Below, piece after piece: positions 3,441-20,276 of a stretch of 37,518 nucleotides of DNA. The stretch's first letter is position 1. Every line of letters starts with the position of its first letter. The stretch covers positions 976-38,493 of the forward strand of contig CAYREZ010000001.1 of NCBI GenBank assembly GCA_964423565.1, read 5' to 3'. The notes below the pieces were generated by a model, which searched no databases, had not been told where the DNA came from, and saw only the letters and a list, made by a program, of their open reading frames with translations. The translations under genes were made by a program, and so were the position numbers. The DNA is from an uncultured Gammaproteobacteria bacterium (GTDB lineage Bacteria; Patescibacteriota; Microgenomatia; UBA8517).

Positions 3441-4613
3441 CTACTTTATATAAGTTGAAATAATAACATCCGCATTAACTTCAGAGTATTTCTTTTCTGC
3501 AAATTTTCTCGCATTATCTGACAATTTTTTTAGTTTATCAGGATTTTTATAAAAATACTCAGCCGACTCTTTAATCTTTTCTGGAGTCACGTCGATTAAC
3601 TTTCCCACGCTTTGGTCAATCGCCTCCGGAATTGCGCCTCTATTAGATCCGATTACCGGAGTACCACACGCCAAAGATTCCAAAATCACTCTTCCGAAAC
3701 CTTCCTCATGTACCGAAGGAACTATTAAAACATCCGCCGCATTATAGTACTTAGGCAACTCATCATTATCTATTTTTCCTAAGTATTGAACATTGGAAAT
3801 TGGAAATCCATCGACTTCGCTCGGGACGGTGAGTTTGTCGAACCGTTGGAAATTGGAAATTGTATTTTCCATCGGTCCTGTTCCAATTATCGTCAAAGTT
3901 ATGTTTTTATCCCAAATTTTAGCCACTTCCAAAAGTTCATTAATACCCTTTTCTAGCACTAACCTCCCCACAAATAAAACAATAAATTTATCTTCCCAGC
4001 CAATCTGTTTTTTAACTTGTCTCTTGTTACTTGTTGCCTTAAACTTATCTAGATCCACCCAATAAGTAAACTCTTGAATTTTAATGTTATCTATCCCCAG
4101 ACTTTTAATTTCTTCAGCTGATTGTTTGGATAATACCAAAATCTTATCAGACTTATTAAAAATCCATTTGGCAAAGATGTGATATAAACCTGCTTTTGGA
4201 AAATTATATATCGAGTGCGTCGTAGTTATAACTTTTTTAGAGAAAACTTTGCTCCAAAAAACCGCTGCAAATCCGGCAATAAGTCCATGACTGTGTATAA
4301 CAGAAATATTTTTTTCTTTAATCAATAAAACTGGTATAAACAGAAAAAGTCCCGGTATTAAGTACATAAATTCCAAAATAGGATTGTTAACAAGATTATA
4401 AAAAACGCCACCGAACCACGGAATTCTATAAATAGTCAAATTACCATTCTTTTCAATAAACGGTGCTGAAGCTTTTGTCGTGATAGGTTTATAAGTTAAT
4501 ACATCAACCTTCCAACCTTTTTTCAAAAGGACTTTTGTCAGATCATCAAAATGCGTTTCGATTCCGCCAATATTGGGCGAATAAGCAATAGTAGTAAGAA
4601 GTACTTCTTTCAT
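3441..4613 (-). CDS. GT4-family (GT-B fold) glycosyltransferase carrying a translated repeat element
   Basis: 390-aa ORF. C-terminal EEGFGRVILESLACGTPVIGS is the E-x7-E region of Glycos_transf_1. The linker ...ISNFQRFDKLTVPSEVDGFPISNVQYLG is encoded by the repeat at 3793-3860. Confidence 0.85.
   Translation of the reverse strand: MKEVLLTTIAYSPNIGGIETHFDDLTKVLLKKGWKVDVLTYKPITTKASAPFIEKNGNLTIYRIPWFGGVFYNLVNNPILEFMYLIPGLFLFIPVLLIKEKNISVIHSHGLIAGFAAVFWSKVFSKKVITTTHSIYNFPKAGLYHIFAKWIFNKSDKILVLSKQSAEEIKSLGIDNIKIQEFTYWVDLDKFKATSNKRQVKKQIGWEDKFIVLFVGRLVLEKGINELLEVAKIWDKNITLTIIGTGPMENTISNFQRFDKLTVPSEVDGFPISNVQYLGKIDNDELPKYYNAADVLIVPSVHEEGFGRVILESLACGTPVIGSNRGAIPEAIDQSVGKLIDVTPEKIKESAEYFYKNPDKLKKLSDNARKFAEKKYSEVNADVIISTYIK
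3793..3860 (+). repeat. Mini-element copy 1: 15-bp direct repeat, 38-nt core, 15-bp direct repeat
   Basis: TTGGAAATTGGAAAT (3793-3807), then CCATCGACTTCGCTCGGGACGGTGAGTTTGTCGAACCG, then TTGGAAATTGGAAAT (3846-3860). Its first 38 nt match the reverse complement of 20239-20276 at 36/38 positions. The overall architecture is shared with 20212-20276. Confidence 0.75.
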
Positions 4614-5638
4614 TTCTTAAATAACTTAATTATTGCGAACTTACAGCTCACATAACCATATATCAAGGTGGTTCCAAGGCACATTAAAGGGTGAACAAAC
4701 CAGGCTAAATCCCTGATTTTTATATATCCCTTCAACGATTCTCCCACAGGACCTATTATCGTCAAGCTGTATAAAACAAAAAGAACTACCTTAATACCGT
4801 CGCCTTTCATAACAACACTCCACCGCCTTTTCCCATGTTCCTGAAAATGATATCTTTCAACAAATATTTTCCTTCTATTCAAGAACTCTAAAAGACCTCG
4901 GGAATGAGTTAAATGGATTATCGAATTTTTAACAAATGCAAATTTCCTATGACCTTTTACGACAACGTCATATAACACGTCAATCGGGTAATGATTATCG
5001 GGATCCGCTTTAGCATTATCTAGAATAAGTTTGCGTCGCATCAAACAACCATTGCTTCCTATAGAAGGAAATTTCCTGGGGTCTTTTTCAAATTCAACTA
5101 AAAAATACTTACCCATGTCCTTTGCTTTTCCGACTAAACTCCACGATCTTGAAATTTGATTCATTCTATCCGCTTTTCTTAAAAAATAAGGTAACGGCTC
5201 ACTCGTACCAAAAAGTGCAAAATAGCGATCCAATAAATCATAGTTTTTATCGTAATGGTAGTAACAAGTTGATGATGCTACAACATCTTTATGCACCAAA
5301 AGAGGGTTAACCATATTTTTTAGCCAATTTTTATCGGGCAAAAAATTATCATGATCAATTATCAGTACGAACTCACTTTTTGCTTTATTAAATGCAACCC
5401 CTCGGTTATATTCTGCGTGTTGTTTTTTTTTGGGAATTCTTAGCACTTTTGCATTATATTTTTTCGCTATAGCCAAGGTTTTGTCTGTCGAACCACCATC
5501 TCCCAATATTATTTCTATCTTCTGCTGGGGATAATTTTGAAGTCTTACCTTACTAAGACATCTGTCTAAAGTTTTATCAGAATTGTAGGTTGCAACACAT
5601 ACGGAAATTGAGGGAAGGACTCTAGTTATTTTTCCCAT
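4610..5638 (-). CDS. GT2-family glycosyltransferase with C-terminal membrane segment
   Basis: The track ORF is 4610..5662, but its first codon is TTG. The first ATG is at 5638 (MGKITRVLPSISVCVATYNSDKTLDRCL...IEIILGDGGSTDKT). The hydrophobic C-terminus is VVLFVLYSLTIIGPV...LMCLGTTLIYGYV. ATGA overlap with the downstream gene at 4610-4613. Confidence 0.8.
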   Translation of the reverse strand: MGKITRVLPSISVCVATYNSDKTLDRCLSKVRLQNYPQQKIEIILGDGGSTDKTLAIAKKYNAKVLRIPKKKQHAEYNRGVAFNKAKSEFVLIIDHDNFLPDKNWLKNMVNPLLVHKDVVASSTCYYHYDKNYDLLDRYFALFGTSEPLPYFLRKADRMNQISRSWSLVGKAKDMGKYFLVEFEKDPRKFPSIGSNGCLMRRKLILDNAKADPDNHYPIDVLYDVVVKGHRKFAFVKNSIIHLTHSRGLLEFLNRRKIFVERYHFQEHGKRRWSVVMKGDGIKVVLFVLYSLTIIGPVGESLKGYIKIRDLAWFVHPLMCLGTTLIYGYVSCKFAIIKLFKK

Positions 5639-12391: not shown

Positions 12392-12400
12392 TGATATAAT
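12392..12400 (+). promoter_or_regulatory. possible extended -10 promoter element (TGATATAAT) for the epimerase gene
   Basis: TG-n-TATAAT lies at 12392-12400, 11 nt upstream of the ATG at 12412. That would give a very short or absent leader. I saw no convincing -35 element. TATAAT-like strings are common in AT-rich DNA. Confidence 0.3.
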
Positions 12401-12411
12401 TGTCCTATATT

Positions 12412-13233
12412 ATGAGAAAAGAAACACCTAGTATCGGAGAAGCACAAGAACGAATTGGCATCCCAAAAGAAATACTATTAATAAACGGTGATACTAAGGT
12501 TCTTGTGTTAACAGAGGGTGCGATGATCACCAAATTTACGGTAAGCAGTACAGATATTCTTTATCCCGATCAAGTAATTGAGACCGTAAAAGGTCCCAAA
12601 CGAAGGGGTGGTATACCCCTGCTTTACCCTCAAGCCGGTCCGATTACTGAAGACGGTGAAGAATTTAGACTATCCCAACACGGCTTTGCTAGAGATCAAG
12701 AATGGGAAGTTACTGAACTTGGAGAAAATAATGACACCGTAACACTTAGGTTAATTTCAAATGAAGAAACAAGAAAAATGTTTCCTTACGACTTTGAATT
12801 GAATTATAAAATTACAGCACTGGAAACTGGCTTAAGAGCTGAGTTAGTAGTTTTGAATAAATCCGACAAGAAAATGCCAGTAGCACCGGGTTTCCATCCT
12901 TACTTTAATATTCCCGTTGAAGATAAACCTGAAATAACAACTAACATTGTGGGGTTCGAACCCGACAAGTATGACTGGAACAGTTCACAAATGTATGGAA
13001 TGCCTCATCCAACTATTTTTAAATACCCCGGCAATGAAATAGAAATACAGTCTTCTCCTGAGCTAAAGACAATGATGATTTGGTCGGAACAAAAAGGTGA
13101 TTACGTGTGTTTTGAACCTTGGACCGGTAGAGTTAATGTACTACAGGATCCCGACAAAAGGTTAGAGGTTAAACCTAACGAATCCCAAACTGTATTTATT
13201 GAAATAAACCATAAAGACGTTGAAAGTATTTAA
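12412..13233 (+). CDS. aldose 1-epimerase family protein (hexose-6-phosphate mutarotase-like)
   Basis: Contains RRGGIPLLYPQAGP and LSQHGFARDQEWEV, as in YeaD/galactose-mutarotase-like proteins. First ATG at 12412 (the track uses TTG at 12400). Confidence 0.75.
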   Translation: MRKETPSIGEAQERIGIPKEILLINGDTKVLVLTEGAMITKFTVSSTDILYPDQVIETVKGPKRRGGIPLLYPQAGPITEDGEEFRLSQHGFARDQEWEVTELGENNDTVTLRLISNEETRKMFPYDFELNYKITALETGLRAELVVLNKSDKKMPVAPGFHPYFNIPVEDKPEITTNIVGFEPDKYDWNSSQMYGMPHPTIFKYPGNEIEIQSSPELKTMMIWSEQKGDYVCFEPWTGRVNVLQDPDKRLEVKPNESQTVFIEINHKDVESI

Positions 13234-13391: not shown

Positions 13392-14138
13392 TTACGTTTT
13401 TCCTTTTTTACTTTCTTCAAAATAATGTCTCGGGTATATCGGCGTCTCCGGCTCGAATGAATCGCGTTTTATTTTAGTTACTATATGTTCAGCTAACCAA
13501 ACCGGATCTAGGTATTTCTTACCCTTTTTTTGTTTTAGGATTTTATCTTCCAATGTCAAAGGACCAAAAGACGTCAATACACTTCCTAAGATTAAATGGA
13601 CAAAGTGAATATTAGTTTTAGAGTATTCTTTAGCAATTGATAGCATTAAACCCCTAAGTGCGAACTTCGAAGCACAATATGCGGACCTGCCCGGTAAAGC
13701 AACCTTTCCCATGCCCGAACCCATACTGATGACGTATGCGTTTTCGGATTTAGCCAAAAGATGTAGAAGTCTATGGGTAGTCAAAAACGCCGCATCAACA
13801 TTCACCATAAATGATTTTTTCCACTCATCATATTCTAGCTCAGAAAACTTTTTATAGACTCCGATTCCTGCAGCATTAAATAAGATATCTACTTTTATTG
13901 CTTCCTTTTCGAGAAACTTCGCCAAACCTGCAGTCGATGTTTCACTGGTCAAATCGGCTATATAAATATTTGCTCTTCCGCCGTGCTCTTCAATACTTTC
14001 TTTCAAACCTTTCAAAACAATTTCATTTCTTGCGACCAAAAAAACGCGAGCACCTTCCCGGGCTAAAACTTTTGATATCTCGCGCCCGATCCCTCCGCTT
14101 GCCCCGGCTACTACCACAATTTTATCTTTAAGCTGCAT
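13392..14138 (-). CDS. SDR-family oxidoreductase
   Basis: Contains KIVVVAGASGGIGREI (Rossmann motif) and YCASKFALRGL (YxxxK). The ATG at 14138 (MQLKDKIVVV...) is preferred over the GTG at 14156. Confidence 0.85.
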   Translation of the reverse strand: MQLKDKIVVVAGASGGIGREISKVLAREGARVFLVARNEIVLKGLKESIEEHGGRANIYIADLTSETSTAGLAKFLEKEAIKVDILFNAAGIGVYKKFSELEYDEWKKSFMVNVDAAFLTTHRLLHLLAKSENAYVISMGSGMGKVALPGRSAYCASKFALRGLMLSIAKEYSKTNIHFVHLILGSVLTSFGPLTLEDKILKQKKGKKYLDPVWLAEHIVTKIKRDSFEPETPIYPRHYFEESKKGKT

Positions 14139-14180
14139 CAATCGTAATAATATCACTCAGATAAGAATATTTGAACCTTG

Positions 14181-14201
14181 CAAGGAGAATCCTTTAAAGG
14201 T
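14181..14201 (+). repeat. REP-like 21-mer, copy 1 (upstream of transposase gene)
   Basis: CAAGGAGAATCCTTTAAAGGT. It can fold as AAGGA-GAA-TCCTT, or through the perfect palindrome CCTTTAAAGG. It is preceded by a second palindrome, CCTTGCAAGG (14176-14185). Confidence 0.8.
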
Positions 14202-14211
14202 AACATAAGTC

Positions 14212-14895
14212 GTGCCTAGTAGAAATGTAATTAAAATTTACATAGAAAACGGTTACTACCATATTTATAATCGCGGAGTTGAGAAACGAATAATCTTTAA
14301 GGATACACAGGATTATAAAGTTTTTTTAACATACCTTAAGGAATACCTCTCACCACCACCTAAACCGGAACATATAAAAACTATATTCATCTTACAAGGA
14401 GAATCCTTTAAAGGTATTAAAAGACAGCCAAAGAACTACTATAAAGAAATCGAACTTATTTCCTATTGCCTGATGCCAAACCACTTCCATCTGTTAATAA
14501 AACAGGTTTCAAAATATTCTATAGAAAAATTTATAAGATCTTTAGCTACGCGCTATTCAGTATTTTTCAATAAGAAATACAACAGAGTTGGTAGTTTATT
14601 CCAAGGTCCATATAAAGCTGTATTAATTTCAAGTGAAAATTATTTGCTACACTTGAGCAGGTATATACATCTTAACCCTTCGGAATATACTGACGATCTA
14701 ATTAACTCATATTCGTCATATGCAGCTTATTTAGGATTACGTAGAACAAATTGGGTTAATTCCGATATTGTTCTAAATTACTTTAATAAACCTGTTGTAA
14801 AAGATTTTATAAAAGTAAATACTTATAAGCGTTTTGTAGAAAAATATAAAAAGGATTCTAGAAAACTTCTAGGGAAATTAACTCTCGAAAATTAA
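14212..14895 (+). CDS. IS200-like Y1 (HUH) transposase / REP-associated tyrosine transposase (RAYT)-like protein
   Basis: 227-aa ORF with a GTG start. Contains YHIYNRGVEKRIIF, the HUH motif YCLMPNHFHLLIK, GSLFQGPYKAVLI, and the catalytic-Tyr region LHLSRYIHLNP. Confidence 0.8.
   Translation: MPSRNVIKIYIENGYYHIYNRGVEKRIIFKDTQDYKVFLTYLKEYLSPPPKPEHIKTIFILQGESFKGIKRQPKNYYKEIELISYCLMPNHFHLLIKQVSKYSIEKFIRSLATRYSVFFNKKYNRVGSLFQGPYKAVLISSENYLLHLSRYIHLNPSEYTDDLINSYSSYAAYLGLRRTNWVNSDIVLNYFNKPVVKDFIKVNTYKRFVEKYKKDSRKLLGKLTLEN
14389..14425 (+). repeat. REP-like repeat, copy 2 (37-nt extended form, inside the transposase CDS)
   Basis: AACTATATTCATCTTACAAGGAGAATCCTTTAAAGGT matches 14894-14930 at 34/37 positions. 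It is translated as ...TIFILQGESFKG... Confidence 0.8.
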
Positions 14896-14930
14896 CTATA
14901 TTCACCTCTCAAGGAGAATCCTTTAAAGGT
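14894..14930 (+). repeat. REP-like repeat, copy 3 (37-nt extended form, downstream of transposase gene)
   Basis: AACTATATTCACCTCTCAAGGAGAATCCTTTAAAGGT. Its start overlaps the transposase stop codon (14893-14895). Its last base overlaps the stop codon of the convergent GT2 gene (14930-14932). Confidence 0.8.
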
Positions 14931-15850
14931 CAAGATTTAACACTTTGCCAATACTTAAAATAAGCAATCGGGTAACGTAATGCAGAAAAAACTGACCAGA
15001 TAAAGCCGCGCATACCGTCTAAGTATCCTTTATGCCTCAGGTAGAGTAATAGAAAGAGATAGAAAGGTTTAATAAATGAGAAATATAAAAGATGTATGAT
15101 GCTACGCTTGGACTTAAACTTAATCTTAAACTCTTTTGCCTGTAGGTCGGTATACCGATTCAGTCTCTCCAAGTACCGGCTAAATGTTGGGGATTCATGG
15201 TGTTCTAAGTCGTTAAAGAGCCATGCAACTTCCCCATCAACTTCCATTAGTTCATGAACCGACTTTGCCGGAAATTTTGCCTTACCGAACTTTACTAGTC
15301 TTATAACTCCGTCTGGATAAACTCCTGCGTGAACCAGTTGTTTACCTAAAAAAAAGTTTCTGCGTGGGATGAAAAATGCAACAATCTCGCCGCTTTCCGT
15401 TCCAATATGACCTTCCCGCTTTTCAATTAACTTTTGGTGCCTCAAAAAAAGTTCATATAACTCATTTTTTTCATTACACTTTCGTTCAAACTGATCACGG
15501 ACAATTTGATTGTTTTCAAATTTAACAACTTCTTTAATCTCTTCCCCCAACTTAGGTGTTACCCTCTCATCAGCATCTAATTGGAGTATCCAATTCCCGC
15601 TTGCCGCACTCAATGCCTTTTGTTTGGTAATATGGAATATTGGTTCGTGTTTTACAGTAAAAACTTTTGCTCCATACTTTTTGGCAATTTCAGGTGTTTT
15701 ATCGCTTGACTCCTCGTCAAAAATGATAATTTCATCTGCAATATATTTTATCGATTCAAGACATTCACCAATATTTTGCTCTTCGTTTCTTGTTGCTAAA
15801 ACAACCGAAAGTGTTTTATGAGATAAGGGTCGAAGATTATGTTTTTTCAT
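14930..15850 (-). CDS. GT2-family glycosyltransferase
   Basis: 306-aa ORF. Contains LSVVLATRNEEQNIGECLESIKYIADEIIIFDEESSDKTPEIAKKYGAKV and LQLDADE (DxD). Confidence 0.8.
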   Translation of the reverse strand: MKKHNLRPLSHKTLSVVLATRNEEQNIGECLESIKYIADEIIIFDEESSDKTPEIAKKYGAKVFTVKHEPIFHITKQKALSAASGNWILQLDADERVTPKLGEEIKEVVKFENNQIVRDQFERKCNEKNELYELFLRHQKLIEKREGHIGTESGEIVAFFIPRRNFFLGKQLVHAGVYPDGVIRLVKFGKAKFPAKSVHELMEVDGEVAWLFNDLEHHESPTFSRYLERLNRYTDLQAKEFKIKFKSKRSIIHLLYFSFIKPFYLFLLLYLRHKGYLDGMRGFIWSVFSALRYPIAYFKYWQSVKS

Positions 15851-20211: not shown

Positions 20212-20276
20212 AATTTCCAATTTCAAACAGTCAGGCAAACCGACCCGAGCGAAGTCGAGGGATTTCCAATTTCCAA
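20212..20276 (-). repeat. Mini-element copy 2 (inverted relative to copy 1): direct repeat, 35-nt core, direct repeat
   Basis: Minus strand: TTGGAAATTGGAAAT, then CCCTCGACTTCGCTCGGGTCGGTTTGCCTGACTGT, then TTGAAATTGGAAATT. The core spans 20227-20261. It is 35 nt long, not a multiple of 3. Confidence 0.75.

What the first reader, a model, noticed from the sequence alone, without database searches (positions are those of the whole stretch)
14166..14930. Y1/RAYT-type transposase bracketed by, and internally carrying, a 21-37 nt hairpin repeat
CAAGGAGAATCCTTTAAAGGT occurs three times on the same strand, at 14181-14201, 14405-14425 and 14910-14930.

**Extended similarity.**
- Copies 2 and 3 match at 34/37 (AACTATATTCAYCTYWCAAGGAGAATCCTTTAAAGGT; 14389-14425 and 14894-14930).
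- Copy 1 has a looser version of the same left arm (ATATT..CCT..CAAGG).

**Folding.** The repeat can fold as AAGGA-GAA-TCCTT, or via the palindrome CCTTTAAAGG. Copy 1 adds a further palindrome, CCTTGCAAGG.

**Interpretation of the flanking copies.** Same-strand subterminal hairpins at both ends of a roughly 0.75-kb unit with a single HUH/Y1 gene match the IS200/IS605 layout. Hairpin repeats next to a Y1 gene are also the REP/RAYT layout.

**The unusual part.** The middle copy lies inside the transposase ORF, between the N-terminal YHIYNRG block and the HUH motif. It is translated as ...TIFILQGESFKGIK... Either a repeat copy has inserted in frame into the gene of the enzyme that presumably mobilises it, or the right end was generated from internal sequence.

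**Context.** The unit sits exactly at the only strand-switch in the island.
Basis: partly seen in the sequence, partly recalled or inferred. Interest (0 to 1): 0.6.

Follow-up and report, generated by a model that had tools for sequence, protein, structure and literature searches.

The report
Transposase-like gene carrying its own hairpin
A small DNA-cutting (RAYT-type transposase-like) gene of an ultra-small groundwater bacterium has the same short DNA hairpin in its promoter, in frame inside its coding sequence and at its stop codon; many related genes share this layout, each with its own matching hairpin, so it is an old, maintained feature and not a fresh insertion.

Summary
CAAGGAGAATCCTTTAAAGGT occurs three times on the + strand (0 expected), but the middle copy is at 14395-14415, not 14405-14425.

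ORF 14212-14895 is a Y1/HUH enzyme. Its confident model is closest to the E. coli REP-associated transposase (4ER8).

The internal copy is not a recent insertion:
- T-L-Q-G-x-[STAP]-F-K-G is conserved in homologues.
- The linker is as long in hairpin-free relatives.
- The DNA hairpin encodes a beta-hairpin.

The layout recurs in at least 31 of 79 homologous loci and 9 of 10 close relatives. A hairpin sits about 12 nt before the start, again at codons ~50-64, and again at the stop. Each locus has its own sequence, with compensatory stem changes and matching loops (52/60 within loci, 13% between).

- **Promoter:** the upstream hairpin carries a -35-like box followed by a -10-like box in 28 of 37 loci.
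- **Insertion:** a relative has the two neighbour genes adjacent, so the unit was inserted antisense into an operon.
- **Deletion:** a decayed paralogue lost its catalytic core hairpin-to-hairpin.
- **Copy number:** hairpins are few (7-10 per genome), unlike classical REPs.

In-gene REPs are published for another RAYT subclass. This is a new variant of a known kind.

The parts
14175..14201 (+). Upstream hairpin U (ACCTTGCAAGGAGAATCCTTTAAAGGT). It ends 10 nt before the start codon. Its 5' arm holds a -35-like TTGCAA (14178-14183).
   Evidence: Searches show the sequence. DNA fold is -6.0 kcal/mol, z -2.85. In 28 of 37 family loci, TTGnnn lies at -34/-35 from the start, inside this hairpin.
14201..14206 (+). 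-10-like hexamer TAACAT, directly 3' of hairpin U. It lies 17 nt after TTGCAA and 5 nt before the GTG start, which implies a leaderless or near-leaderless mRNA.
   Evidence: Read from the sequence. TAnnnT sits at -11/-12 from the start in 28 of 37 loci. In this window the pair scores only 8/12 and was not listed by the consensus scan.
14212..14895 (+). Gene for a 227-aa Y1/HUH single-strand DNA endonuclease (RAYT-like). HUH is H91/H93 (14482-14490). The catalytic-type Tyr151 in RYIHLNP is at 14662-14664.
   Evidence: Pfam Y1_Tnp 45.6 bits. More than 8000 homologues. Invariant residues. AF2 pLDDT 90.2. Foldseek best hit 4ER8, E 6.7e-7.
14379..14415 (+). Internal copy I1. The 27-nt hairpin is 14389-14415 (ATCTTACAAGGAGAATCCTTTAAAGGT), with a 10-nt 5' flank shared with copy D. 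It is in frame as K-T-I-F-I-L-Q-G-E-S-F-K-G (residues 56-68) and encodes a beta-hairpin whose turn, Q62-G63, lies just 5' of the DNA loop (the E64 codon).
   Evidence: Structural covariation in 22 homologous internal sites: 84.8% paired, 7 of 12 pairs with double changes, 0/500 shuffles. Strands 56-61 and 64-69 in the model, pLDDT about 91.
14894..14930 (+). Downstream copy D. The 27-nt hairpin is 14904-14930 (ACCTCTCAAGGAGAATCCTTTAAAGGT), with the 5' flank AACTATATTC that begins inside the TAA stop codon. Its last base overlaps the stop codon of the convergent glycosyltransferase gene.
   Evidence: 34/37 match to I1. In relatives the position relative to the stop is -6 to +36.
14850..14859 (+). 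AAAGGATTCT, a perfect reverse complement of the hairpin core AGAATCCTTT, inside codons 213-216. It may be a relic of an inverted downstream copy; in some relatives the downstream copy lies in the last codons.
   Evidence: Inverted repeats I15, I16 and I22. In L032, L037, L038 and L053 the downstream copy lies at codons 213-238. Not tested further.
13392..14138 (-). Flanking short-chain dehydrogenase gene. Together with the glycosyltransferase gene it forms the interrupted operon.
   Evidence: Orthologue is directly upstream of the Y1 gene in L008, L009, L018 and L020. In relative G007 it starts 3 nt after the glycosyltransferase stop, with no Y1 unit between.
14930..15850 (-). Flanking glycosyltransferase gene, whose stop codon abuts hairpin D.

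Best explanation
The 0.76-kb unit 14175-14930 is a REPtron-like cassette of Microgenomates (Patescibacteria).

**What it consists of.** A RAYT-type Y1/HUH single-strand DNA endonuclease gene carries its cognate hairpin at three fixed places:
- in its own promoter, with the -35 box in the 5' arm and the -10 box directly after the 3' arm, giving a leaderless mRNA;
- in frame at codons 60-68, where the DNA hairpin is read as a protein beta-hairpin;
- abutting the stop codon.

**What is shown.**
- The layout is family-wide.
- The copies within a locus co-evolve in stem and loop.
- The internal copy is written into a pre-existing linker without adding residues.
- The unit was once inserted antisense between a glycosyltransferase gene and a dehydrogenase gene. 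It has since been inherited vertically in a subset of Woesebacteria.

**What is inferred.**
- The enzyme binds, and cuts and rejoins, this hairpin on single-stranded sense-strand DNA, as TnpA-REP and IS608 TnpA do.
- That activity, or gene conversion that it triggers, keeps the local copies identical.
- It seeds a few copies elsewhere, at gene ends and in frame within genes.
- It occasionally joins two hairpins and deletes what lies between, as in the paralogue remnant on contig C44.
- Binding at the promoter copy probably represses the gene's own transcription.
For: **The repeat and the enzyme.**
- Three exact copies, 0 expected by chance.
- Y1 fold and motifs. 4ER8 is the best structural match, followed by about 25 IS608/ISDra2/IS200 TnpA chains.

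**The layout recurs.**
- At least 31 of 79 loci from genome contigs have two or more sites.
- At a conservative threshold, 24 of 78 loci show an upstream-internal match and 14 of 78 a downstream-internal match, at near-constant offsets.
- 9 of the 10 best loci from relatives of this genome show it.

**The hairpin is under selection as a structure.**
- Compensatory changes in the internal hairpin include GGA:TCC, GGT:ACC, GGC:GCC and GGG:CCC. 0 of 500 shuffles reach the observed scores.
- Unpaired loop bases agree within loci in 52 of 60 comparisons, against 13% between loci.
- G-T wobbles lie on the sense strand. In 5 of 8 loci the flanking copy has a C where the internal copy is forced to T by the Phe codon.

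**Promoter.** Promoter geometry is present in 28 of 37 loci.

**Insertion and inheritance.**
- Empty site in G007.
- Shared synteny in L008, L009, L018 and L020.

**Hairpin-to-hairpin deletion.**
- The C44 remnant keeps its N-terminus, one hairpin and its C-terminus, and lacks the HUH-to-Tyr core.
- The deletion ends where the four-site relatives L040, L046, L057, L069 and L070 carry their two internal hairpins.
Against: - No biochemical evidence links the protein to the hairpin.
- The window's own internal and downstream copies fold weakly (-3 to -4.7 kcal/mol).
- The window's -35/-10 pair scores only 8/12.
- Copy number is far below that of classical REPs: the complete genome G018 has 3 copies at the locus plus 1 elsewhere.
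- NCBIfam REP_Tyr_transpos scores 36.7 bits, below its cut-off of 80.
- Orientation of the flanking copies varies between loci.
- About half of the sampled family shows no detectable multi-site hairpin.
- The deletion in C44 could equally come from ordinary recombination or slippage between direct repeats.
- Only contigs, not raw reads, were available, so no excision joints could be looked for.
Confidence: 0.7

Rival explanations
1. It is an active minimal IS200/IS605-type insertion sequence. The upstream and downstream hairpins are the left and right ends, and the internal copy is an accident.
For: - Same-strand subterminal hairpins bracket a single Y1 gene of IS200 size.
- Pfam Y1_Tnp is above its cut-off.
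- The TnpA fold is matched.
- A relative has the empty site, so the unit did insert once.
- Presence is patchy: 30 of 41 relatives carry 1-9 copies.
Against: - There is no second identical or near-identical copy in the genome; the paralogues are 32-40% identical.
- The same flanking genes occur in several relatives whose neighbour proteins are only 46-67% identical.
- NCBIfam transpos_IS200 scores 18 bits against a cut-off of 55.
- The Tyr motif is YIHLNP (RAYT type), not the IS200 type (PMC6006769 Table 1).
- The best structural match is the RAYT 4ER8.
- The internal copy is conserved family-wide, so it is not an accident.
Confidence: 0.12
2. The hairpins are selfish or neutral passengers. 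They are REP-like repeats that settle in any permissive spot, including a tolerant loop of the enzyme's gene. They are kept alike by gene conversion and have no role for the gene.
For: - Quentin et al. 2018 (PMC6006769) describe in-frame REP copies inside tnpA-REP genes of subclass 2.4 and regard them as peripheral and probably harmless.
- The same or sister hairpins lie in frame in unrelated genes of this genome (C95, C17, C32, C51, C59, C62, C86).
- Other translated mini-repeats exist in this window.
Against: - The internal site is at the same place in hairpin families with unrelated sequences. It is at least as well kept as the flanking copies: L010, L028, L037 and L042 keep only the internal one.
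- It adds no residues.
- It encodes a confidently modelled beta-hairpin.
- Invariant G63, F66 and K67 show protein-level constraint as well.
- The upstream copy has a fixed register with the promoter.
Confidence: 0.25
3. The elements act as RNA. Hairpins in the mRNA body and 3' end control translation or stability, and the DNA-level similarity is secondary.
For: - G-U wobbles are tolerated on the sense strand (pair 9-19: AU 12, GU 10).
- The downstream copy sits where a 3' stabiliser would.
- Known REPs affect mRNA decay (abstracts listed).
Against: - The promoter geometry puts the upstream copy outside the transcript, yet it co-evolves with the others.
- No Rfam match.
- No T-run for termination.
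- In many loci the downstream or flanking copies are inverted, which would change the RNA loop.
- HUH/Y1 enzymes are DNA enzymes by established knowledge.
Confidence: 0.12
4. A repeat copy recently inserted in frame into this particular gene, or the right end was copied from internal sequence in this genome only.
For: - Copies I1 and D share a 10-nt 5' extension, giving 34/37 identity.
- This shows recent exchange between copies in this lineage; L008, L009 and L017 share it at I1.
Against: - The internal residues and the hairpin are present in homologues at 46-72% identity from many genomes.
- The linker length is unchanged.
Confidence: 0.03

Closest known systems
REPtrons: REP-associated tyrosine transposases (RAYT / TnpA-REP, e.g. 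E. coli YafM, PDB 4ER8) flanked by cognate REP hairpins (Nunvar 2010, PMC2817692; Bertels 2017, PMC5581495)
   Same: - Y1/HUH fold; 4ER8 is the best structural match.
- YI-x-x-NP Tyr motif.
- The gene is bracketed by its own hairpin.
- Hairpin and gene co-evolve.
- Mostly vertical inheritance without identical gene copies.
   Different: - Only about 7-10 hairpin copies per genome, against more than 100.
- In this window the flanking copies are on the same strand, not inverted.
- There is no GTAG-type head.
- An extra copy lies inside the coding sequence at a conserved place.
- The upstream copy is built into the promoter.
- The NCBIfam RAYT model scores below its cut-off.
TnpA-REP subclass 2.4 of Quentin et al. 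2018 (PMC6006769) = RAYT group 4: REP sequences inserted in frame within the tnpA-REP gene
   Same: A published case of the enzyme's cognate hairpin lying inside its own reading frame without breaking it, in addition to the flanking copies.
   Different: [quoted passage not shown]
- Here the copy lies before the HUH motif (a second one in relatives lies after the Tyr helix), adds no length, is positionally conserved and encodes an ordered beta-hairpin.
- The motif set also differs: NHFH / FQ / YIHLNP here, against NH[IFV]H / WQ / YIxNNP.
- The hosts are Patescibacteria, not Cyanobacteria or Bacteroidetes.
TnpA-Y1 subclass 2.1 of Quentin et al. 2018 (= RAYT group 1 of Bertels 2017; TIRYT of Di Nocera 2013)
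   Same: The motif signature listed in their Table 1 fits by eye: NH[YF]H, FQ, Y[IV]HLNP, a conserved SS after the core, about 238 aa with a helical C-terminal extension. This protein has NHFH, LFQG, YIHLNP, S168-S169 and 227 aa.
   Different: For subclass 2.1 the authors found no REP-like sequences near the genes, and terminal inverted repeats were reported instead. Here there is a clear cognate hairpin at three or four sites. Membership was judged from motifs only; their profiles were not available.
IS200/IS605 family (IS200, IS608, ISDra2)
   Same: - Y1 TnpA fold.
- Subterminal hairpins on one strand at both ends of a roughly 0.7-kb single-gene unit.
- By established knowledge, a hairpin of IS200 also controls its expression.
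   Different: - No multiple identical copies.
- RAYT-type Tyr motif.
- The protein is about 75 residues longer.
- The NCBIfam IS200 model scores far below its cut-off.
- There is an internal hairpin.
HUH Rep proteins whose nick site lies inside their own gene (phiX174 gene A, pT181 repC). Recalled from general knowledge, not tested here.
   Same: An HUH enzyme with its DNA recognition site embedded in its own coding sequence.
   Different: Those are replication initiators of phages and plasmids with a single origin. They have no flanking copies and no chromosomal, vertically inherited cassette.

Membership tests
RAYT / TnpA-REP (REPtron) | Y1/HUH fold with an HUH motif and a catalytic Tyr | tested here: met
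   H91-F-H93 and Y151 are invariant. AF2 pLDDT 90.2. 4ER8 is the top Foldseek hit: E 6.7e-7, TM 0.68 normalised to the target.
RAYT / TnpA-REP (REPtron) | RAYT-type Tyr motif YI-x-x-NP and a (W/F)Q motif | tested here: met
   R-Y-I-H-L-N-P and L-F-Q-G are conserved. Compared with Table 1 of PMC6006769.
RAYT / TnpA-REP (REPtron) | Curated NCBIfam model REP_Tyr_transpos (NF047646) above its cut-off | tested here: not met
   36.7 bits against a cut-off of 80.
RAYT / TnpA-REP (REPtron) | Gene flanked on both sides by its cognate palindromic repeat | tested here: met
   Copies at 14175-14201 and 14904-14930. The same holds in relatives.
RAYT / TnpA-REP (REPtron) | Flanking REPs in inverted orientation (Nunvar 2010) | tested here: not met
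   In the window all three copies have the GAA loop on the + strand. In relatives the downstream copy is inverted in several loci (L012, L013, L023, L034, L053) but not in all.
RAYT / TnpA-REP (REPtron) | [quoted passage not shown] | tested here: not met
   7-8 copies in this genome. 3+1 in the complete genome G018, 3+7 in G041 and 6+2 in G042.
RAYT / TnpA-REP (REPtron) | Single, vertically inherited gene without identical duplicates | tested here: inconclusive
   No identical duplicates, and synteny is shared with L008, L009, L018 and L020. But genomes hold 1-9 divergent paralogues, 11 of 41 relatives have none, and an empty site exists.
RAYT / TnpA-REP (REPtron) | The enzyme binds and cleaves its hairpin on single-stranded DNA | not testable with these tools
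   Needs purified protein and oligonucleotides.
IS200/IS605 insertion sequences | Pfam Y1_Tnp domain | tested here: met
   45.6 bits against a cut-off of 23, but only residues 78-153 align.
IS200/IS605 insertion sequences | Curated NCBIfam model transpos_IS200 (NF033573) above its cut-off | tested here: not met
   18.1 bits against a cut-off of 55.
IS200/IS605 insertion sequences | Subterminal hairpins on the same strand at both ends | tested here: met
IS200/IS605 insertion sequences | Several (near-)identical copies, or other signs of recent transposition | tested here: not met
   The only other matches in the genome are 32-40% identical paralogues and one remnant.
TnpA-REP subclass 2.4 (in-gene REPs; PMC6006769) | [quoted passage not shown] | tested here: not met
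   The internal copy lies 27 residues before H91. The HUH-to-Y distance is a constant 60 residues. The second internal site of relatives lies near or after the Tyr motif, at codons 143-168.
TnpA-Y1 subclass 2.1 (PMC6006769) | Motifs NH[YF]H, FQ, Y[IV]HLNP and SS; about 238 aa with a C-terminal extension | tested here: inconclusive
   All motifs are present by inspection, and helices 170-223 appear in the model. The authors' HMM profiles and tree were not available.
TnpA-Y1 subclass 2.1 (PMC6006769) | No REP-like structures next to the gene (terminal inverted repeats instead) | tested here: not met
   A clear cognate hairpin occurs at three sites. See for the published description.

The most novel reading that the evidence does not exclude
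The in-gene hairpin is an obligatory working site of a self-referential system. The Y1 enzyme acts on its own coding sequence and on look-alike sequences elsewhere.

- It would use a master copy to rewrite short patches of DNA without changing their length. That would explain how a 15-nt palindrome replaces native K-[LI]-P-x-L codons in the PolX gene.
- It would also explain how stem and loop stay identical at three or four sites.
- Hairpin-to-hairpin joining that removes the HUH-Tyr core would act as a built-in off switch.

This would be a templated, hairpin-guided short-patch DNA editing activity of an HUH enzyme.
Probability: 0.15. Interest if true: 0.85.

Novelty: new variant of a known kind. 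Interest (0 to 1): 0.55.

Why it matters
What RAYT enzymes do, and how REP-type hairpins are copied, remain open questions more than a decade after their discovery.

**Why this family is useful for that question.**
- The system is very compact: 0.76 kb, one gene and three or four substrate sites.
- The substrate is written into the enzyme's own reading frame and promoter.
- All copies change together.

That gives a small, self-contained cassette for testing hairpin binding, cleavage, copy correction, autoregulation and hairpin-to-hairpin deletion in E. coli.

**Consequences for annotation and evolution.**
- In tiny-genome Patescibacteria, short palindromes can be overprinted on coding sequence without indels. 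This affects gene annotation, codon-level evolutionary analyses and repeat finding in these lineages.
- It extends the published observation of in-gene REPs (subclass 2.4) to a different RAYT subclass, to different positions and to another phylum.

Tried and rejected
- **Public sequencing runs.** Only assembler contigs were available. The two 'joints' reported (14279>14462 and 14289>14467) have 24-26-nt sides at under 95% likeness and come from other organisms' homologues. They are not evidence of excision.
- **Rfam scan of 14000-15100.** No match at E up to 1.
- **Consensus promoter and terminator scan of the window.** It does not list the TTGCAA-17-TAACAT pair (8/12) and finds no terminator. 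The promoter reading rests on the family comparison, not on this window alone.
- **Sequence search of the PDB with the family profile.** Only marginal hits to ISDra2 TnpA, E 0.06. The fold comparison was needed.
- **First AF2 model, built on 20 close sequences.** Poor, pLDDT 58. It was replaced by a model built on 74 diverse sequences.
- **Other translated mini-repeats of this window (3793-3860 and 20212-20276).** They have TTGGAAA heptamers and a GC-rich core unrelated to this hairpin, and were set aside.
- **Classical high-copy REP.** Considered and rejected on copy number.
- **CRISPR-like or tandem array.** Rejected: three copies spaced 214 and 515 nt apart, one of them coding.
- **Intrinsic terminators.** Rejected: no T-run.
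- **Literature searches for this layout in candidate-phyla-radiation bacteria.** Nothing specific was found.
Full report
**1. The observation**

The 21-mer CAAGGAGAATCCTTTAAAGGT occurs three times on the + strand, at 14181-14201, 14395-14415 and 14910-14930. No match is expected in shuffled sequence.

- Copies 2 and 3 extend to a 37-mer with 3 mismatches, at 14379-14415 and 14894-14930.
- Copy 1 is 79% identical to copy 2 over 47 nt.
- The unit is best read as a 27-nt hairpin, ACCTT-GC-AAGGA-GAA-TCCTT-TA-AAGGT. It is perfect in the upstream copy, 14175-14201.
- As single-stranded DNA it is only moderately stable: -6.0 kcal/mol (z -2.85) upstream. The internal and downstream copies have weakened outer stems and fold at -3.0 and -3.9 to -4.7 kcal/mol.
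- ORF 14212-14895 (227 aa) contains the middle copy in frame as Q62-G-E-S-F-K-G68.
- 30 of 32 large ORFs in the window are on the - strand. The two exceptions are this gene and 12400-13233, so 'the only strand switch' is not exact.

**2. The protein**

- It matches Pfam Y1_Tnp (45.6 bits, cut-off 23), but only over residues 78-153.
- The NCBIfam models for RAYT (36.7 bits, cut-off 80) and IS200 (18.1 bits, cut-off 55) are both below their cut-offs.
- More than 8000 clusters of homologues exist, many full-length at 62-72% identity. Those with names are from Woesebacteria and other Patescibacteria.
- H91, H93 (HUH) and Y151 (in R-Y-I-H-L-N-P) are invariant.
- An AlphaFold2 model built on 74 diverse family members is confident: pLDDT 90.2, pTM 0.86.
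- Its best match in the PDB is the E. coli REP-associated tyrosine transposase bound to a REP hairpin (4ER8; E 6.7e-7, TM 0.68 normalised to the target). About 25 chains of IS608, ISDra2 and IS200 TnpA follow.
- The motif set is NHFH, LFQG, YIHLNP and S168-S169, in 227 aa with a helical C-terminal extension. By eye this fits subclass 2.1 of Quentin et al. 2018 (PMC6006769 Table 1). I could not run their profiles.

**3. The middle copy is not a recent insertion**

- In 20 homologues the stretch F-[TI]-L-[QK]-G-x-x-F-K-G is conserved. G63, F66 and K67 are invariant.
- The distance from the N-terminal YNRG block to the HUH motif is the same in loci with the hairpin layout (median 68) and without it (median 66). 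The hairpin therefore sits in a pre-existing linker and adds no residues.
- In the model, residues 56-61 and 64-69 form a beta-hairpin with its turn at Q62-G63, pLDDT about 91. The DNA hairpin is read as a protein hairpin, with the beta-turn just 5' of the DNA loop (the E64 codon).

**4. The nucleotide repeat is nevertheless real and family-wide**

I fetched 80 homologous loci from species-representative genomes and 30 more from relatives of this genome.

- At least 31 of 79 loci carry the same locus-specific hairpin at two or more of these places:
  - ending 9-32 nt (mostly 10-18) before the start codon;
  - inside the gene at codons 49-64;
  - at -6 to +36 from the stop, or in the last codons.
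- Five loci (L040, L046, L057, L069, L070) have a second internal copy at codons 143-168.
- With a conservative threshold taken from between-locus comparisons, 24 of 78 loci show an upstream-internal match and 14 of 78 a downstream-internal match, at almost constant offsets.
- Nine of the ten best loci from relatives show the layout.
- The hairpins differ completely between subfamilies. Examples: ATTGCAAGGTCAGACCTTGCAAT in L034, TGACAGGGCCAGGCCCTGTCA in L057, ACTTAGAGGAGAAACCTCTAAGT in L064, AGGGTCGGACCCT in L069.
- Some loci (L010, L028, L037, L042) keep only the internal hairpin, so it is at least as persistent as the flanking copies.

**5. Selection on structure, and concerted change**

- On 22 aligned internal 27-mers, 84.8% of cells pair. 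7 of 12 pairs show changes on both sides. No shuffle out of 500 reaches the observed covariation, and slid structures score far lower.
- The clearest pair joins the third base of the Gly63 codon to the first base of codon 65: UA 11, AU 5, CG 1, GC 1. This explains why residue 65 is almost always S, T, A or P.
- The unpaired loop bases, which pairing cannot constrain, agree (or are the exact reverse complement) within a locus in 52 of 60 comparisons, against 13% between loci.
- So the copies are either homogenised by an active process or jointly selected by one reader of the sequence.
- G-T wobbles lie on the sense strand. In 5 of 8 loci with a wobble at pair 9-19, the non-coding flanking copy has C (a Watson-Crick pair) where the internal copy is held at T by the Phe66 codon (read). 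The internal copy is thus a compromise between the peptide and the stem.

**6. The upstream copy is part of the promoter**

- In 28 of 37 loci a TTGnnn lies at -34/-35 from the start codon, inside the 5' arm of the hairpin.
- A TAnnnT lies at -11/-12, directly after the 3' arm, with a 16-18-nt (mostly 17-nt) spacer. An example is TTGCAG-17-TATAAT-6-ATG in L022.
- That geometry predicts a leaderless mRNA and puts the hairpin across the -35 box and the spacer.
- In the window the pair is TTGCAA (14178-14183) and TAACAT (14201-14206). It scores only 8/12, and the generic scan did not list it.
- Inference: binding of the enzyme, or extrusion of the hairpin, would shut off its own promoter.

**7. 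History of the locus**

- The dehydrogenase gene lies directly upstream of the Y1 gene in L008, L009, L018 and L020. The glycosyltransferase gene lies downstream in L008, L009, L013 and L018. The neighbour proteins are 46-67% identical.
- In relative G007 the glycosyltransferase orthologue (58%) ends 3 nt before the dehydrogenase orthologue (48%), on the same strand, with no Y1 unit between.
- The unit was therefore inserted antisense into a co-directional gene pair. In the window it fills the space from the glycosyltransferase stop codon, which overlaps the last base of the downstream hairpin, to 37 nt before the dehydrogenase ATG. This explains the strand switch.
- Among 41 relatives, 30 carry 1-9 divergent paralogues and 11 carry none.
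- No identical copies exist in this genome.

**8. Copy number and other copies**

| Genome | Copies at the locus | Copies elsewhere |
|---|---|---|
| This genome (window hairpin) | 3 | 4 |
| G018 (complete) | 3 | 1 |
| G041 (1.3 Mb) | 3 | 7 |
| G042 | 6 | 2 |

- In this genome the four other copies are three just after stop codons or in short spacers (C11, C66, C22) and one inside a 370-codon frame (C95).
- This is far from the hundreds of copies of classical REPs.

**9. A decayed paralogue shows hairpin-to-hairpin loss**

- Contig C44 holds a remnant with its own hairpin, AAGGTTC[C/G]GAACCTT.
- That hairpin sits 28 nt before the start, at +180 (the usual internal position) and after the stop.
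- The remnant keeps residues about 1-60 and about 165-226, the latter in another frame. It lacks the whole HUH-to-Tyr core.
- The missing part is exactly what lies between the two internal sites of the four-site relatives.
- The cause cannot be told: either the enzyme, or ordinary recombination between direct repeats.

**10. That second palindrome also lies inside other genes**

- It has seven more copies at six places, all inside long reading frames.
- In the PolX gene (C59) it is read as K-V-P-N-L, where homologues have K-[LI]-P-x-L. The segment has the same length (31 residues) in 51 of 53 homologues.
- At least there, the palindrome overwrote native codons and was not inserted.

**11. What is known**

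- Nunvar 2010 (PMC2817692) and Bertels 2017 (PMC5581495) describe RAYT genes flanked by REPs. They do not mention internal copies.
- Quentin et al. [quoted passage not shown]
- For subclass 2.1, whose motifs fit this protein, they found no REP-like sequences.
- The present family therefore differs in five ways: position (before the HUH, and after the Tyr helix in relatives), absence of added length, positional conservation with co-evolution, the promoter-embedded copy, and host phylum.
- I found nothing specific on this layout in candidate-phyla-radiation bacteria.
- Earlier notes of this scan describe the same layout in at least seven other Patescibacteria genomes. They agree with my reading but are not independent evidence.

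**12. Verdict**

- The gene is a RAYT-like Y1/HUH enzyme with a low-copy cognate hairpin.
- The internal copy is an ancient, maintained and translated part of a three- to four-site cassette.
- The enzyme-hairpin interaction, the autoregulation and the copy-correction mechanism are inferred, not shown.
- This is a new variant of a known kind.

Noticed in passing
genome contig C44, about 3881-4310 (- strand); outside the window: A deletion derivative of a paralogous Y1 gene. It keeps the N-terminal ~60 codons, one hairpin (AAGGTTCCGAACCTT) and the C-terminal ~60 codons in another frame. The same hairpin lies before the start and after the stop. The HUH-to-Tyr core is missing.
   Followed up: partly
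genome contigs C17:11685, C32:748, C51:6298/6314, C59:1988, C62:375, C86:3087: The 15-nt palindrome AAGGTTC[C/G]GAACCTT of the decayed paralogue lies in frame inside six long ORFs, including PolX-like, Pol I 5'-nuclease-like and RarA-like genes. It is read as KVPNL, KGSEP or RFGTL. In PolX it occupies native K-[LI]-P-x-L codons with no length change in 51 of 53 homologues.
   Followed up: partly
window 14850-14859: AAAGGATTCT, in codons 213-216 (K-K-D-S), is the exact reverse complement of the hairpin core AGAATCCTTT. It may be a relic of an inverted downstream copy, or a long-range pairing partner of the downstream hairpin 55 nt away.
   Followed up: no
window 14894-14903; C66:88-97; C22:3431-3440; L091 and L024 upstream copies: A conserved AT-rich 5' flank, ACTATAT(T/A)C, precedes extragenic copies of the hairpin in several genomes. 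In the window's clade (also L008, L009, L017) it precedes the internal copy too, where it codes K-T-I-F. It could be a cleavage or guide sequence, or an UP-like element.
   Followed up: no
L058:3151-3196 and 4938-4983: One relative carries a 46-nt near-perfect palindrome at the internal position, and a second copy 1.2 kb downstream of the gene.
   Followed up: no
relatives G022:C5, G002:C75, G007:C3, G016:C21, G015:C16, G005:C80: Several homologues lie in open frames of 398-470 codons, about twice the usual length. This suggests fusions with another domain, or read-through into a neighbouring gene.
   Followed up: no
L123 (relative G014), between the glycosyltransferase and dehydrogenase orthologues: At the site where the window has the Y1 unit, this relative has a different co-directional ORF of about 150 codons (MKLKDKRQLLKYLKSQNLMTLATS...). 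The spacer is a recurrent landing place for extra genes.
   Followed up: no
window 3793-3860 and 20212-20276: Two other translated mini-repeats (TTGGAAA heptamers around a GC-rich core), already noted by earlier readers, are unrelated in sequence to the Y1 hairpin.
   Followed up: partly
genome contigs C12:9800-10363 and C72:640-1242: Two intact but distant Y1 paralogues (32-40% identity) have a linker of the same length (66 residues) but no obvious internal hairpin. They would be useful hairpin-free comparators.
   Followed up: partly
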